Origin: a virus
Taxonomy: Duplodnaviria; Heunggongvirae; Uroviricota; Caudoviricetes
Reading direction: 5' to 3' (one strand)
IMG/VR virus record: IMGVR_UViG_2645727604_000018
Length of the DNA: 36,905 bases
The position numbers were made by a program. Each line of letters starts with the position of its first letter. Within the stretch, counting starts at the first letter, position 1. Shown in pieces: positions 3,001-9,000 of this stretch.

Positions 3001-6000
3001 TAATCGATCGAATATTTATTTATGATAGATGGAAGCTATTATAAGGTTGTTTTTGATCGTTTTAAACGATATGACGAGACGCTAAAAGAATTGAATCCTA
3101 TCAATTGGTTAAGCGGTGATTTTGCCATGTGATATCAGCCGGACCCCGCAACAACTCTAGCCCTGACCGGATTAGGTCAAAAATTTAGGCACTTTGATTA
3201 TCAGGATGGATAAGCAGATGAAGAAGATTTTACTCGTTGCTGGCGCAGCTCTGGCACTGGCGGGATGTGGTGAGAAAGGTGAGTTTGAGAAAGCGATTAA
3301 TGCCAAGATTGGGCAGGGCAAATACTGCTTCTCGCTGGATAACAATAACACCAGCTTCCCCATCCGTCTTGCCAAGCCACTACGTGATTCGACTGGCACA
3401 GGGACCAATTCAGTGATCCTCGACGGTTTTATTGAGCAGGGCCTGATGGTTTTTGAACAGGGCTATGACTCGAACGTATTAGGGATAACAGAGGAAGGCA
3501 AAAAAGCCAAAGTCTGGAGCACAGCAGACGGTGCCTGTGTTGGTCGTCGTGCTGTTGATGAGATTAAGGAATGGACGGAGCCGGGAAACGGTAATCAGAA
3601 AGTAGTTCGCGTGACTTATACATGGAAGTTGGTTGACGTTCCGGGCTGGATTGACAAAAAAGCCTTCGCCAGCGTTAAAGGAATGAATGATTCTGCTGAT
3701 GGTGCCATGAATCTTGTTAAAACCAGCAATGGCTGGAGAGCCAATTAACAGTTCCCTCTAAAGATCTGTGACGAGCATGGCTAGGGGCTTATGAGGGCGA
3801 GTTGCTGCCCTCATATGAATTTAATTTTTTCTTATTCATTCGTGAAGTTAACGAGTGTTAACTATATTTGCATTTGGCATTTTATTATATATATCTAAAT
3901 ATAATTTACCGAGCAAATATTTTTTATATTCTCTTTTGTCAAATCTTAATATACTACTTTCTGAGTTATTTTTGAAATATGATATTCCAGTAGATACGGC
4001 ATATTCAAGATTTAATTTGGCAGTTGCAAATTCTATTGCTTCTATTGTCATTTCTTGATATCTTTCGTTTATCAAAAAAGTATTTACTGTGTTTTTAATT
4101 GAAATATTTGTAGTATCGTAAGATATGTTTATTTTTATTTTTTCTGGTGATGAAATCATTCCGTCTATTAATGTTAAAACACCATCCTCATGAGTTAAAA
4201 CGAAATTTATAACTTCATCATCCCACAGTGGGTTTAAATGTTCATTTGCGAAGAAATCAATTGTGCCTTTAAGGCTTGAGTTACATGAACTACAACTTGG
4301 GATTAAATTGTTAATTACCAATGCAAGGTGAGGAAAGTCATCCTTACTATAAAAATGATCTAATGTAGGACGAAAACCGCGATTCTTTTTTTGTATCGAA
4401 AAAGCATATGCTTGATTGCAATACGGACATGTTCTGCTTATTGATTTTTTACATAGAGTATATGCATTCCATGATCCTGTTTTCCTAACAAACTTATTGT
4501 AATTAAAAATAGATCTTATTTCTTTGTCGAATTGCTTCGATATATCCGGCGTTATTGACAATCTGTGTTTGTACTCTCTATATATATCAATACTCTCCAA
4601 TATATCTTGTTTACCGGCAAGTATTAATAGGTGATGCACATCTAGAATAAATTTTTTAGCTTCGTCTCGTCCTTCAGAACTAGGAATGGATTTATTTAAA
4701 AAGTTGCATATCAAATTATTTAAATAATGTGTATGTAATTTTATTGCTTTTTCCCAGTTGTTTTTAATTGAAATAATCATATATGAAGACCTTCAATCCT
4801 TATGCTGCATAATTAAGCGTTCGATTTCGCTTTTTATTAGAGGGTTGTCTATATTATTTATAAGGTAATAATCTTTTTCAGTCAGTATTCTATTAGGTAT
4901 TTTGTCGATGATGGTTTCAATTTTATTTGTTGCAAATTCTCCAATGGTTTTAGTTCCAAAAGATTCATTTAGTAAAATATAAAGAGGAGATGCAAAACCA
5001 CTTAACGTAGCATTTTCAATTGGTAGTCTAGTTATAAAGTCTTTGGGAACGTCTGTGGCTAACAATGGAGAGTGCGAGGCTAGAATAAGTTGTAAATTAT
5101 CTATGCCCAGAGATGTTTTTAATGAGCCTAGCATTTTATTTAAATTAGAAATATATTTCCTTTGCCAATCGATATGTAAAAAAGCGTCCCCTTCATCTAT
5201 TAATAGTAGTATTGATCTGATACCTCTATCTGACAGTTTAGTAATAGAGTCAGAGATGGCGCCAATTTGAGCTAGAATAGCAATTTGCCCAGAACTCATA
5301 TCAGAAAAATCAATTTTAAAAATATCATTCAAATTGTATCTTGTTAATAACCTTTGTCCTTCGTAAGGGTCTATTTCGAATTCTAACCTTAAAGTTGATT
5401 CATTAAGTCTTGAATCCTTTATGATTTCATGGTTTTTTACCTCATATTTTATAATATTAAGTAAACTATCTATTTTGCTTTCACATTCTAAATATAATTT
5501 AGTCTCTCTGAGTTTTCTATTTGAACGGATGTTTAAATTTAAGTGTTTGTTTAATAATGGAATTACTACGTTATCACTGAACTGTTTTTTTGTACTTGCC
5601 CAATCTATTATGCTAAATATGGAAAAGAGTTTTTCTTCACCTGCGCGATGAAGTATTTCATCAATCAGATGCGCGGAGCAACGCTGCATAATAGAATCAA
5701 TTTCTGCTTGAATATTTTTATTGGTACTATATTTTATAGTGTCTGAATCGTCATTATCTATATTATCATCAATTTTTGCACGTAATGACAAAATATCAAG
5801 GAGACCGTGATTCAGTAGTATGCTGTTCTGATTAAGATCTTTATTATTTAAAGCGATATTAAGTATTAATCTTGCAACTTTGCTAATGTTTGTCATCTTC
5901 ATGGCAACAACTTTTGGATAAATATCAAAGTCAGATATTAAATCCTTGTATTCGATAAGGTCAAATACAGTATTTTTTCCATTCAAGCTTGGAGATGCGT

Positions 6001-9000
6001 TAATAAACCTACTATCTCTAATATTCAACTTTGGTCTAAATGGTAATGGGGTGAAATATATAACTCCCCAGTTTCTAATTTCAGTATGATCTATTCTTTC
6101 ACCGCTAGAGTTTAATATTGTACAATCGCCTGTTAATTGCATGTTATTTTTAGGAAAGAAATAGTTAATTATGCTACATAAGGATTTTGTCTTCCCTGAA
6201 CCATTTATACCAATAAGTAAAGATAAAGAATCCATATCATAAATATTAATATCATTAGCACTATTATTTCTTAGTTTAATTTTAGTGCCATTTGTTGTGA
6301 TTTCACTAATCATAATTTTCCTTTGATACTATCTTTGAATAAGATGGGGGCATTCAAGATCCATGTGAAATAAAACATAACAAAATCTTGTTCATATTGC
6401 AATTGATAATCATCTGTAATTTTATGATCTAAAATTTGGTTTGACGAAGTTTATTTTTGACGAGTTAAATTGATTATTTTTAGGGAGGACATCCATACCG
6501 CTCTCTGACTCTAATTGAACTCGCTTAGGACGGCTTGGGAAACGCTTGATCTCATTAGGTGTTAATTTATAGTTACTATCGTTAAATTTGGTACGTTTTT
6601 CAAACTCTGAGCGTGGAACATTGACACCCAGCACTTCATCATAGACATAGTTCTCTGCGATACGCTTATCATGGTCAGCATCAGTGGTATCGGGTTTCAT
6701 TCTGGCCCATATAAATTTCTCTCTTATATATCCTACTATCAGTAGCGTGAAACGTTTAAACAAACCATTCTGGCGGGGCTTGGTCTGTTTCCTACTCCTC
6801 ACAGGAGCACGCTTCATCGCTCTGGTGTTTTGAGAAGAAGGGTTTTTCAGTTTAGTGGATTTATTTGGTTCAGGTGCAACCAGAACAGGGGATTTCTTAG
6901 CTGCAGCACCAACTTTACTGACCTTATTGGGGGCATGGTAAGATTTTACGGCTGGTCTTCTGTATGGTTCTGACTCTGCATGAATCGGTTGCTGCTTTGT
7001 TGTTGCCGGGTAGTCAGGGAGAACGATCTCTTCCGGTTCAGGAAGCTGGTAAACAGAGTAAGAGCGAACATCAACAACGATTTCCAGTGGTAGCTCACTG
7101 AATGTGGCGTAGACCTTCTTTGCTTCCTCAATTTGATGATCGCGTTGAGCTTGTTCAGCAGCTCGTTGTTCCTGAGACTCGGTATCATTCCATTTAGCAC
7201 GATGAACACGCTGCATTGCCGGGCGGTTTGTTTCCGTTGCTTTGGCAAGCCAGAATGCTTTCTCTTCAGCACTGAATGCTTCTTCTGCCTGAGCAAGGGC
7301 ATCAGCACATTGAGTTCTGAGAGAACGGTGATCGATACGTTCTTCACTGCCTGCGGCTTCAAGGTAGCTGTTTGACATCGTGGCCCACGACTCACGCCAC
7401 TGAACAACCATCTTCTTATCATTCCAAGTTCTGTCTTTTTTACCGAAGCCTTCGGGCCCGATGGTTTTCAGGGTTAACATGACGTGAGCGTGTGGGTTCT
7501 TACTGTCTAAGTCATGGAATGCGATATCAGCAATCATTCCTTTATCAACAAAGTTCTTCTGGCAGTATTCGGCAACCAATTTTTCTTGTCATCATTGTTG
7601 AGTTCTACGGGAATAGCGACATCAAAATAACGGGCTGTTTGACCGTTGTTCTGGCGTTCCACTCTTTCAACTTCATTCCAGAGTGCTGAGGAGCTTTCAA
7701 TAATATGAGCAGGTGCGGAAACGGGCGCTAATATAATATGACCATGAAGATCTGTTCTGTGGCTGAAATCAAATGTTTCGCCAATGCGATCATCTGTAAT
7801 ACGTGTACGGGCATGGTAGGCAGCTTTCGCAACGGAAGTCATGCCCTCGCTTCGTTTCACAATTTTAAAATCCAGATGGAAAATCGCCATTAAAAATATA
7901 ACCTCAAATAAAAATGCTGCTGTTAGTTTTTCGCCAGAAAAACTTCGGGGTTGACGTTGACCTTGGTTTTGCTTTTAGCCTGCGGCAGGCAACCGTCGGT
8001 AGACCCCACACACTGCGTAGCAGTGTATAGGTGGGCATTGTCTTTAAGAAAATAAGCCAATGTAAAATGCCCCTCTTATTAATTAATACGAAATATATGT
8101 ATGGTTGTAAAATAATACGCCGGGTTAAGCGGCGCAAACTGGATTAAAGGTGTAGGTTTCACGTCCACAGGACAAAAAGAGTAAAGAAAAGGCCCGTAAG
8201 GGCAATAGAAGTATTAATTATTCCCGCCGTAAGGCGGGATAGCTAAATTTGATGAAAAAAAACTAATAAAACAGAGAGTGTTATGTGTTGCACAATTTAC
8301 AGGTTGAGATTGGAAAATAGAGTTTAAAATTGACAGGTGAAAATAAAAGCACAAATGCGTAAAAATAAGTAACGCGGAGAGTGCCAGATGTTTTTGGTTA
8401 GTGAATACTATCATATGCGTTGCACATATTTATAAAGAAATGTATCAGAATCATTCTCTCTAACAAAATGGTGTAAATTTGACGTTATTTCTCTTTGTGA
8501 TAATTAAATACGTGTAAACAACAAGAGGTGATAACTATGGATGATAATATAAAAAGACCAAGAACAGAAAAAACATTAAAGCAAAAGGTTGCTTTTGCTC
8601 AGCTTGAACTTAACCGCCTTAAGTCTCTGGAGAAATCAGAACGAAAGAAAGTTGAAACAAGGCTAAAGATTATACTTGGTGCGGAAGTAGCTAAAGCTAT
8701 GCATTGCGATATCGAACAGGTGGATAAAGAACTCGTTATGGGGATTTTGCTTTCAGCATCTGACCTGAATGATATTGAAAAAATAACATATATAAAAGCA
8801 GGCAGGAAGTTTCTCGCGCAAATGGAGGGAAGACAAAAATAAAAATCTTTAAATTTATTTTGAGTCAGGTATTGATATCTGATTATTATCTGTTATCTAT
8901 ATAAAAGAACAGAACGCAGGATAATCCTTTATTAATATTTTTTCCTTTTCAATCATGCGTTCTGTTCGACCAGTAATCTGTTAATTTTTATCTTTATGTA

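What the first reader, a model, noticed from the sequence alone, without database searches (positions are those of the whole stretch)
3848..6313. Septu-like two-gene defence pair (ATPase plus HNH nuclease)
A 506-aa protein with Walker A GINGSGKT and Walker B LLLIDE is followed 12 nt later by a 310-aa protein with a C-x2-C...H...N...C-x2-C HNH motif. This ATPase-then-HNH architecture matches Septu (PtuA/PtuB). The pair is AT-rich and sits in an island next to mobilisation genes. No reverse transcriptase or structured ncRNA lies upstream, so this is not the retron-associated PtuAB variant.
Basis: partly seen in the sequence, partly recalled or inferred. Interest (0 to 1): 0.6.

Follow-up and report, generated by a model that had tools for sequence, protein, structure and literature searches.

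The report
Septu-family ATPase plus HNH nuclease pair
This is an intact, stand-alone two-gene module (an ABC-type ATPase followed by an HNH nuclease) from a divergent, already catalogued but untested branch of the Septu anti-phage family, carried as swappable cargo on an E. coli genomic island; it is a sound call but not a new kind of system.

Summary
Two minus-strand ORFs, 4793..6313 (506 aa) and 3848..4780 (310 aa), are 12 nt apart, with 29% GC against 42% for the window. The ATPase has ABC-type motifs: Walker A, an MSSGQ signature, Walker B DE and an H-loop. The second protein has an invariant CxxC…DH…N…CxxCN HNH core.

By sequence the pair fits PADLOC's unpublished candidate PDC-M62 (A 80 bits, B 141 bits) better than the PtuA/PtuB models (43 and 37 bits). 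It falls far below NCBIfam's retron-type PtuA/PtuB cut-offs. DefenseFinder calls Bacillus PDC-M62 loci "Septu".

An ATPase homologue lies directly upstream in 34 of 34 evaluable loci from several phyla. No third gene recurs, and there is no reverse transcriptase or retron RNA. dN/dS is 0.17 and 0.20. The pair sits in a variable cargo slot of a tRNA-Asn island and is present in 10 of 5,426 complete E. coli genomes.

Verdict: a new member of a known kind. Anti-phage activity is inferred, not shown.

The parts
6314..6421 (-). Leader and putative promoter region upstream of the ATPase gene, with RBS AAAGGAAAATT before the ATG
   Evidence: Sequence read. A weak sigma-70-like match lies at 6447..6419. 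The roughly 110-nt leader is recognisably conserved next to the Morganella orthologue, in an unrelated genomic context. Promoter function is inferred.
4793..6313 (-). PtuA-like ABC-type ATPase, 506 aa (PADLOC PDC-M62A class)
   Evidence: ORF. PADLOC PDC-M62A 5.2e-23 against best PtuA 8.7e-12. Pfam AAA_21 and AAA_15 both above gathering score. PDB profile search puts PtuA-type ATPases first. Foldseek top 23 hits are PtuA chains. AF2 model pLDDT 81.8. dN/dS 0.17.
6188..6211 (-). Walker A / P-loop, G35-I-N-G-S-G-K41-T42
   Evidence: G35, N37, G38, G40 and K41 are invariant and T42 is at least 90% conserved in 81 homologues.
5285..5296 (-). ABC signature motif S340-S-G-Q343 (MSSGQ)
   Evidence: S340 and G342 are invariant and S341 is at least 90% conserved. 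It aligns with the LSDGQ signature region of the retron PtuA-type ATPases.
5192..5209 (-). Walker B, I369-L-L-L-I-D373-E374
   Evidence: D373, E374, G375 and D376 are invariant.
5072..5074 (-). H-loop histidine H414 (HSP)
   Evidence: H414, S415 and P416 are invariant.
4781..4792 (-). 12-nt intergenic spacer AGGTCTTCATAT
   Evidence: Identical in the Morganella orthologous pair. In most relatives the two genes abut or overlap, which suggests co-translation.
3848..4780 (-). PtuB-like HNH nuclease, 310 aa (PADLOC PDC-M62B class)
4280..4429 (-). HNH (beta-beta-alpha-metal) core with a four-cysteine zinc site: C118, C121, D141-H142, N158, C163, C166, N167
   Evidence: All of these residues are invariant in 81 homologues. 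Pfam HNH scores 20.5 bits, just under its 21.4 gathering score. The H142-to-N158 spacing of 16 equals the H75-to-N91 spacing of the Septu EcB88 PtuB catalytic residues (PMC13096335).
4571..4780 (-). N-terminal extension of about 70 residues (helical bundle, invariant W9 and H16), absent from PtuB
   Evidence: PtuB profiles start aligning at residues 106-113, at profile positions 22-44. The model shows helices 13-29, 36-54 and 57-74 at pLDDT above 90. The extension is shared with PDC-M62B profiles. Its function is unknown.
3791..3814 (.). GC-rich hairpin ATGAGGGC-N8-GCCCTCAT between the convergent HNH and lipoprotein genes; probable bidirectional terminator
   Evidence: Sequence. RNA fold gives -17.4 kcal/mol, z = -2.87. 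The hairpin is conserved downstream of the Morganella pair. Terminator function is inferred.

Best explanation
This is a stand-alone Septu-family (PtuA/PtuB-type) ATPase-nuclease module of the divergent clade that PADLOC lists as candidate PDC-M62. It is carried as accessory cargo on a tRNA-Asn integrative mobilisable island.

Shown here:
- Two co-oriented, tightly linked genes under purifying selection.
- An ABC-type ATPase with a complete catalytic motif set, whose closest solved relatives are PtuA proteins.
- An HNH nuclease with an intact catalytic and zinc-binding core, whose HNH-plus-C-terminal-domain fold matches PtuB.
- Obligatory pairing of the two genes across phyla, with no third partner, reverse transcriptase or retron RNA.

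Inferred from characterised Septu and Retron-Eco7 PtuAB (PMC12819146, PMC13096335):
- The ATPase dimerises through ATP held between Walker A and the signature motif, and oligomerises through its helical insertion (about residues 143-291).
- Its C-terminal helices hold the nuclease by the nuclease's C-terminal domain, keeping it inactive in healthy cells.
- Phage infection (a phage protein trigger and/or a fall in ATP) releases or activates the nuclease.
- The nuclease then nicks DNA and/or causes cleavage of a host tRNA (tRNA-Tyr in the studied systems). This stops phage production at the cost of the cell's growth (abortive infection).

The clade-specific N-terminal extension of about 70 residues on the nuclease may change how it is regulated or what it recognises. 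That is speculation.
For: - ORFs and motifs.
- PADLOC: both proteins hit the PDC-M62 A and B models best and PtuA/PtuB models next. The top-25 list for the HNH protein holds only ATPase-partnered HNH classes: PDC-M62B, PDC-M01B, PtuB and retron HNH_I-A.
- ATPase: the family profile ranks PtuA-type ATPases first among 177,635 PDB sequences. Foldseek's top 23 hits are PtuA chains at probability 1.0.
- Naming: DefenseFinder calls 'Septu' on the same gene pairs that PADLOC calls PDC-M62.
- Pairing: an ATPase homologue lies immediately upstream on the same strand in 34 of 34 evaluable loci, across Proteobacteria, Bacillota, Bacteroidota and a spirochaete. No other neighbour family recurs in more than 2 of the 35 loci.
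- Selection: dN/dS 0.17 and 0.20.
- Context: next to Lamassu LmuB plus AbiH in Ralstonia. Gabija/OLD, MADS and HEC-01 genes occur among neighbours elsewhere. The pair is present on some viral or prophage contigs.
- In E. coli it fills a variable slot between the lipoprotein gene and mobQ, which holds other cargo in strains KFu019 and CI5. It is present in only 10 of 5,426 genomes.
- No reverse transcriptase or retron RNA.
Against: - No experiment exists on this locus or, as far as the searchable literature shows, on any PDC-M62 member. PDC-M62 is an unpublished candidate.
- Sequence similarity to validated PtuA/PtuB is weak. NCBIfam PtuA scores 30.8 bits against a 500-bit cut-off and PtuB 23 against 150, though those models are retron-type equivalogs.
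- Single-sequence PDB searches give only E of about 0.02 for the ATPase and nothing for the HNH protein.
- Foldseek found no PDB match for the whole HNH model.
- Foldseek TM-scores for the ATPase are low (about 0.26), so the domain arrangement may differ from PtuA.
- The defence-island association of relatives is anecdotal and was not compared with a background rate.
- The trigger, the oligomeric state and the nucleic-acid target are entirely inferred.
Confidence: 0.75

Rival explanations
1. The proteins and biochemistry are the same, but the selected role is maintenance of the mobile element or competition between elements. The pair would act as an addiction or exclusion module that stabilises the island or attacks incoming plasmids, and not primarily as a defence against phages.
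For: The pair sits on an integrative mobilisable element beside mobQ, traD and thin-pilus genes. It travels as a compact two-gene cassette between unrelated sites, for example next to smpB in Morganella. Retron-type PtuAB is toxic when it is not restrained (PMC12819146).
Against: Many relatives lie in ordinary chromosomal contexts with no mobility genes nearby, or next to bona fide anti-phage systems. Characterised family members protect against phages (PMC13096335). The relaxase of this island is already a pseudogene, yet the pair is intact and under purifying selection.
Confidence: 0.12
2. PDC-M62 is a mechanistically distinct ATPase-HNH system that only shares ancestry with Septu. For example, it might restrict invading DNA directly, or use the nuclease's N-terminal domain as its own sensor, without the Septu-type assembly or tRNA cleavage.
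For: PDC-M62 models outscore the PtuA/PtuB models by about 40-100 bits. The nuclease has an invariant-residue-bearing N-terminal extension of about 70 residues that PtuB lacks. The ATPase superposes poorly as a whole on PtuA, at TM about 0.26.
Against: The gene order, the ABC-ATPase motif set, the PtuB-like HNH plus C-terminal domain and the catalytic H-to-N spacing of 16 are all shared with Septu. DefenseFinder already merges this clade with Septu.
Confidence: 0.1
3. It is a PARIS (AriA/AriB), Gabija (GajA/GajB) or OLD-type system.
For: The ATPase also hits AriA profiles (4e-11), and it belongs to the same AAA_15/AAA_21 ABC-ATPase superfamily as AriA, GajA and OLD.
Against: No Toprim domain is detected in either protein, and there is no DUF4435/Toprim AriB partner and no UvrD-like GajB partner. 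In the PDB profile search AriA and OLD rank far below PtuA, at 1e-3 and 0.09 against 1e-9 to 1e-8. The conserved partner is always the HNH protein.
Confidence: 0.02
4. It is the effector half of a type I-A retron (RT, ncRNA and PtuAB) that has lost its reverse transcriptase and RNA.
Against: No reverse transcriptase is annotated within 20 kb either side in the identical E2348/69 locus, and no retron RNA is found. None of the 35 related loci shares a third gene. The NCBIfam retron-type equivalog scores are far below their cut-offs. The ATPase is 506 aa, against the 542-552-aa retron-type ATPase chains in the PDB.
Confidence: 0.02

Closest known systems
Septu (stand-alone PtuA/PtuB; E. coli Septu structures 8EE4/8EE7/8EEA; Septu EcB88)
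   Different: Sequence similarity is only at superfamily level: the best PADLOC PtuA model gives 43 bits and the best PtuB model 37 bits, the latter covering the HNH core only. The nuclease is 310 aa against 234 aa for PtuB and has about 70 extra N-terminal residues. The ATPase superposes poorly as a whole on PtuA (TM about 0.26). Oligomeric state, trigger and target are untested.
PADLOC candidate system PDC-M62 (A and B genes; unpublished candidate of Payne et al., in PADLOC-DB v2)
   Same: It is the best-scoring class for both proteins: A at 5.2e-23 and B at 1.5e-41, the latter including the N-terminal region. Every family member tested, including a Bacillus one, scores PDC-M62B well above PDC-M01B, which scores above PtuB.
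   Different: The PDC-M62A profiles are about 100 positions longer than this ATPase (597-633 against 506 aa) and align mainly with its residues 111-503. The models appear centred on Bacillota: the Bacillus member scores 268 bits against 141 bits here. This is therefore a proteobacterial branch.
Retron type I-A effectors (Retron-Eco7/Ec78 and Ec83 PtuAB)
   Different: There is no RT, ncRNA or msDNA partner here. NCBIfam equivalog scores are far below their cut-offs. The retron-specific elements described for Ec78 PtuA (an N-terminal extension and msDNA-binding elements) are not expected in a 506-aa stand-alone protein.
PARIS (AriA/AriB) and Gabija (GajA/GajB)
   Same: The sensor or scaffold is an ABC ATPase of the same superfamily, paired with a nuclease.
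   Different: The nuclease here is a separate HNH protein, not a Toprim domain or Toprim protein. There is no helicase partner.

Membership tests
Septu (PtuA/PtuB) | Two adjacent co-oriented genes, ATPase followed by HNH nuclease, sufficient on their own | tested here: met
   The genes are 12 nt apart on the minus strand. An ATPase homologue lies directly upstream in 34 of 34 evaluable related loci, and no third gene recurs.
Septu (PtuA/PtuB) | PtuA: an ABC-type ATPase (Walker A, signature motif, Walker B, H-loop) related to PtuA and not to other ABC ATPases | tested here: met
   The motifs are invariant. Pfam AAA_21 scores 37 bits against a 27-bit cut-off. PtuA-type chains rank first in the PDB by profile, at 1.3e-9 and 2.3e-8, and by fold, as the top 23 hits.
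Septu (PtuA/PtuB) | PtuB: an HNH (beta-beta-alpha-metal) nuclease with the PtuB-type C-terminal domain | tested here: met
Septu (PtuA/PtuB) | Best sequence-profile assignment is to the PtuA and PtuB models | tested here: not met
   PADLOC gives PDC-M62A 80 bits against PtuA 43 bits, and PDC-M62B 141 bits against PtuB 37 bits, the latter over the HNH core only. DefenseFinder could not be run here, but it labels Bacillus PDC-M62 loci as Septu.
Septu (PtuA/PtuB) | Protection against phages that depends on the ATPase and HNH catalytic residues | not testable with these tools
   Shown for Septu EcB88 (PMC13096335). No data were found for this locus.
Septu (PtuA/PtuB) | A higher-order PtuA oligomer holding PtuB; infection-triggered DNA nicking or tRNA-Tyr cleavage | not testable with these tools
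   Known from PMC12819146 and PMC13096335.
PADLOC candidate PDC-M62 | Both genes best matched by the PDC-M62A and PDC-M62B models, and adjacent | tested here: met
   for this pair. for divergent family members.
Retron type I-A (RT, ncRNA and PtuAB) | A reverse transcriptase and an msr-msd ncRNA adjacent to the ATPase and HNH genes | tested here: not met
   No reverse transcriptase is annotated in the 99.9%-identical E2348/69 locus within 20 kb either side. No retron RNA family reaches Rfam's gathering score. No recurrent third gene occurs in 35 loci.
Retron type I-A (RT, ncRNA and PtuAB) | NCBIfam equivalog scores for PtuA (NF041760) and PtuB (NF041761) | tested here: not met
   30.8 bits against a 500-bit cut-off, and 23 bits against a 150-bit cut-off.
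PARIS (AriA/AriB) | A Toprim/DUF4435 AriB nuclease partner | tested here: not met
   The partner is an HNH protein. No Toprim hit appears in Pfam, PADLOC or NCBIfam.
Gabija / OLD | A Toprim domain fused to the ATPase (GajA/OLD), plus a UvrD-like helicase for Gabija | tested here: not met
   The ATPase C-terminus (residues 444-505) is helical with no Toprim hit. OLD scores only E 0.09 in the PDB profile search. There is no helicase neighbour.

The most novel reading that the evidence does not exclude
The PDC-M62 clade, defined by a PtuB-like nuclease with an invariant-residue-bearing N-terminal helical extension of about 70 residues and by a divergent PtuA-like ATPase, is a functionally distinct sister of Septu. 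It would have its own phage trigger and/or nucleic-acid target, with the N-terminal domain acting as a sensor or autoinhibitory module.
Probability: 0.2. Interest if true: 0.5.

Novelty: new member of a known kind. Interest (0 to 1): 0.3.

Why it matters
The pair adds a plausible, intact defence module to the model pathogen EPEC E2348/69, where it is annotated only as 'AAA family ATPase' and 'hypothetical protein'. It also shows that PADLOC's untested candidate PDC-M62 is, by structure, a Septu branch.

The family is large. The HNH family profile finds 868 clusters at 50% identity at E ≤ 1e-30. One phage challenge of this easily cloned 2.7-kb E. coli cassette would therefore validate or reject a widespread class.

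The nuclease's N-terminal extension offers a handle on how Septu-type nucleases are regulated. The variable slot between the lipoprotein gene and mobQ in this island family may be a small cargo hotspot worth mining.

None of this changes current understanding. It is a confirmatory, cataloguing-level result.

Tried and rejected
- Single-sequence PDB searches were nearly empty: E about 0.02 for the ATPase and none for the HNH protein. Family profiles were needed.
- Pfam HNH falls just below its gathering score. The NCBIfam PtuA/PtuB equivalogs fall far below their cut-offs, so the pair cannot be filed as retron-type PtuAB.
- Literature searches for PDC-M62 and PDC-M01 found only census papers. 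Searches for the protein accessions and locus tags found nothing. A 'Septu' plus 'E2348' search led only to a different EPEC defence island.
- The primary Septu structure paper (PMC12318543) is not held.
- The neighbour scan against PADLOC returns only aggregated family counts. It could not give a defence-gene fraction or a background comparison.
- PARIS, Gabija/OLD and retron readings were considered and rejected on domain content and the absence of partner genes.
- An 'inactive relic' reading was rejected on the intact motifs and a dN/dS of about 0.2.

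
Full report
**Observation**

One is 4793..6313 (506 aa) and the other is 3848..4780 (310 aa). They are separated by the 12-nt spacer AGGTCTTCATAT. The pair is 29.4% GC in a window of 42.3%. At that composition, ORFs of this length have chance probabilities of about 4e-20 and 1e-12.

The window is 99.9% identical over this stretch to the chromosome of EPEC O127:H6 E2348/69. There the genes are annotated only as 'AAA family ATPase' (WP_000622558.1) and 'hypothetical protein' (WP_000587168.1). Only 10 of 5,426 complete E. coli genomes carry the pair.

**Anatomy of the ATPase**

An 81-sequence alignment shows these invariant motifs:
- Walker A: G35-x-N-G-x-G-K41
- ABC signature motif: S340-S-G-Q
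- Walker B: D373-E374
- H-loop: H414-S-P

It is therefore an ABC/SMC-type ATPase, not a classical AAA+ protein. Pfam AAA_21 (37 bits) and AAA_15 (33 bits) both pass their gathering scores. The AlphaFold model (pLDDT 81.8) shows a nucleotide-binding head interrupted by a long helical insertion at about residues 143-291, followed by C-terminal helices at 444-505.

**Anatomy of the HNH protein**

In 81 homologues down to 28% identity, these residues are invariant: C118, C121, R137, P138, D141, H142, N158, C163, C166 and N167. This is a CxxC…DH…N…CxxCN beta-beta-alpha-metal core with a four-cysteine zinc site and Asn in the last position.

Residues outside the core are also invariant: W9, H16, Y94, F97, Y107, F235, R240 and G291. 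The model is very confident (pLDDT 92.9). It shows an N-terminal helical bundle, the HNH core, a small beta element and a C-terminal helical domain.

**What the pair is related to**

PADLOC's best models are the candidate system PDC-M62 for both proteins:

| Protein | PDC-M62 model | Best PtuA/PtuB model |
|---|---|---|
| ATPase | A: 5.2e-23, 80 bits | PtuA: 8.7e-12, 43 bits |
| HNH protein | B: 1.5e-41, 141 bits | PtuB: 6.8e-10, 37 bits (HNH core only) |

PDC-M01B and AriA also hit weakly. NCBIfam's retron-type PtuA and PtuB equivalogs are hit, but far below their cut-offs: 30.8 against 500 bits and 23 against 150 bits.

Family profiles against all PDB sequences rank PtuA-type ATPases first:
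- Retron Ec83 ATPase: 1.3e-9
- Septu PtuA 8ee4: 2.3e-8
- Ec78 PtuA: 1.4e-7
- AriA: 1e-3
- Rad50: 5e-3
- OLD: 0.09

The HNH profile only marginally reaches one retron I-A HNH protein, at E = 0.0024.

The next hit scores 6.1.

PtuB profiles begin to align at our residues 106-113, at their own positions 22-44. So roughly the first 70 residues are an extension that PtuB lacks. The spacing between the catalytic His and Asn (H142 to N158, 16 residues) equals that between H75 and N91. Those are the residues whose mutation abolishes defence in Septu EcB88 (PMC13096335).

**PDC-M62 versus Septu**

A census of the Bacillus cereus group describes the PDC systems as unpublished PADLOC candidates. It reports that PADLOC itself double-called 203 loci as both Septu and PDC-M62. 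Its supplementary tables show DefenseFinder calling 'Septu' on the same gene pairs that PADLOC calls PDC-M62.

All divergent members of our HNH family, including a Bacillus one (268 bits), score PDC-M62B well above PDC-M01B, which scores above PtuB. PDC-M62 is therefore best read as a divergent Septu clade with a longer nuclease, and this E. coli pair is a proteobacterial member of it.

**Is it a real, autonomous module?**

- Each protein has about 130-140 clusters of close homologues, mostly in Enterobacterales and Pseudomonas.
- An exhaustive profile search finds 868 clusters at 50% identity at E ≤ 1e-30, and 6,231 at E ≤ 1e-3.
- In 35 loci from distinct species, an ATPase homologue lies immediately upstream on the same strand, abutting or overlapping, in all 34 loci that have upstream sequence. 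The hosts span Gamma- and Betaproteobacteria, Bacillota, Bacteroidota and a Treponema MAG.
- No flanking gene family recurs in more than 2 of the 35 loci.
- Nine viral or prophage contigs encode relatives, and at least three of them carry the pair.
- The Morganella orthologues (89% protein identity) sit next to smpB without the E. coli island. They keep the same 12-nt spacer, a recognisable leader and the downstream hairpin. dN/dS is 0.17 for the ATPase and 0.20 for the nuclease.

**Context**

In E. coli the pair lies in an integrative mobilisable island at a tRNA-Asn gene. The island carries integrases, RepL, a MobQ relaxase (a pseudogene here, with an internal stop), TraD and thin-pilus genes.

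Twenty-eight E. coli genomes share the DUF4238–lipoprotein segment. In KFu019 and CI5, the slot between the lipoprotein gene and an intact mobQ holds other genes: small hypotheticals, and a DUF3800 protein in CI5. The pair is therefore exchangeable cargo.

Elsewhere, relatives sit next to Lamassu LmuB plus AbiH, a Vsr-like gene, a large deaminase and IS66. Neighbours across loci include Gabija/OLD, MADS and HEC-01 genes. This is suggestive but was not compared with a background rate.

No reverse transcriptase or retron RNA is present.

**Mechanism**

Shown here:
- Intact catalytic motifs in both proteins.
- Obligate pairing of the two genes.
- Purifying selection on both.
- PtuA-like and PtuB-like folds.

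Inferred from characterised Septu and Retron-Eco7 PtuAB (PMC12819146; PMC13096335):
- The ABC ATPase oligomerises and holds the HNH nuclease inactive.
- Infection (a phage protein and/or ATP depletion) releases or activates the nuclease.
- The nuclease nicks DNA and/or leads to cleavage of tRNA-Tyr, which gives abortive infection.

The role of the N-terminal extension is unknown.

**Rivals**

- An island-maintenance or exclusion role for the same proteins (about 0.12).
- A mechanistically distinct sister system (about 0.10).
- PARIS or Gabija/OLD. Rejected: no Toprim domain and no helicase.
- A decayed retron I-A. Rejected: no RT or ncRNA anywhere in the family's neighbourhoods.

**Verdict**

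The refinement is that the pair belongs to the PDC-M62 clade of the Septu family. No experimental work on this locus or clade was found. It is a new member of a known kind, of modest interest, and useful mainly as an easy test case for validating a widespread candidate class.

Noticed in passing
window 6422..7890 (minus strand): The MobQ/MobA-MobL relaxase directly upstream of the pair is split into two ORFs (118 aa and 385 aa). It is annotated in E2348/69 as a pseudogene with an internal stop, but it is intact in E. coli KFu019 and CI5. This copy of the island has probably lost self-mobilisation.
   Followed up: partly
window ~3750..6420; L056 10096..11818; L057 10096..12790: The interval between the lipoprotein gene and mobQ is a variable cargo slot in this island family. 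It holds the ATPase-HNH pair here, three small hypothetical genes in KFu019, and hypotheticals plus a DUF3800 protein in CI5.
   Followed up: partly
window 16004..17835 (plus strand): This is an overlapping gene pair. The first gene is a DUF262/GmrSD_N protein matching PADLOC NsnA (5.6e-83, Menshen) and PD-T4-2_A (9e-44). The second is a RiboL-PSP-type HEPN protein. It is probably a second defence module, lying between two integrase genes at the tRNA-Asn end of the island.
   Followed up: partly
window 11428..13547 (minus strand): A 114-aa ORF (11428..11772) has four repeats of a T-x-x-T…E…D-[ED]-D-[YF] motif. It lies downstream of an MvdC/MvdD-type ATP-grasp gene (12627..13547). This looks like a graspetide (microviridin-like RiPP) cluster with a multi-core precursor. 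The gene between them (11784..12637) appears frameshifted relative to the 855-nt E2348/69 gene.
   Followed up: no
window 29382..30716 (minus strand): A 444-aa protein with an FRG domain matches the PADLOC single-gene candidate PDC-S15 at 2.7e-99. It lies in a low-GC patch of the prophage-like right half of the window.
   Followed up: no
window 763..1818 (plus strand): A DUF4238 protein (351 aa, 48 bits) in low-GC DNA, with no PADLOC hit. It is conserved together with the DUF4755 protein and the lipoprotein in 28 E. coli genomes.
   Followed up: no
window 1..655: An IS3-family transposase fragment (ORF 24..644) abuts the island here. It is not at this position in E2348/69, where the match begins at window base 656. 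The window therefore comes from an E2348/69-like strain with an IS-mediated rearrangement of the island's left part.
   Followed up: partly
window 19353..36057: Right of the island lie two tRNA genes (19353..19425 and 20417..20503). Beyond them is prophage-type content: an exodeoxyribonuclease VIII-like gene (21846..24287), DicF RNA (24932..24983), sok antitoxin RNA (31342..31516), and STnc100 (35805..35995) and AgvB (35996..36057) sRNAs.
   Followed up: no
L008 6001..7374 and proteins P0057, P0086, P0088, P0245, P0255: A subset of the HNH family is 441-458 aa long, with about 140 additional N-terminal residues ahead of the region shared with the 310-aa protein. These proteins are still paired with the ATPase. 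The extra domain was not characterised.
   Followed up: no
L006 3725..5467: One divergent member of the pair sits next to a 580-aa protein with a dCMP/cytidine deaminase domain. This may be a deaminase-type defence gene.
   Followed up: no
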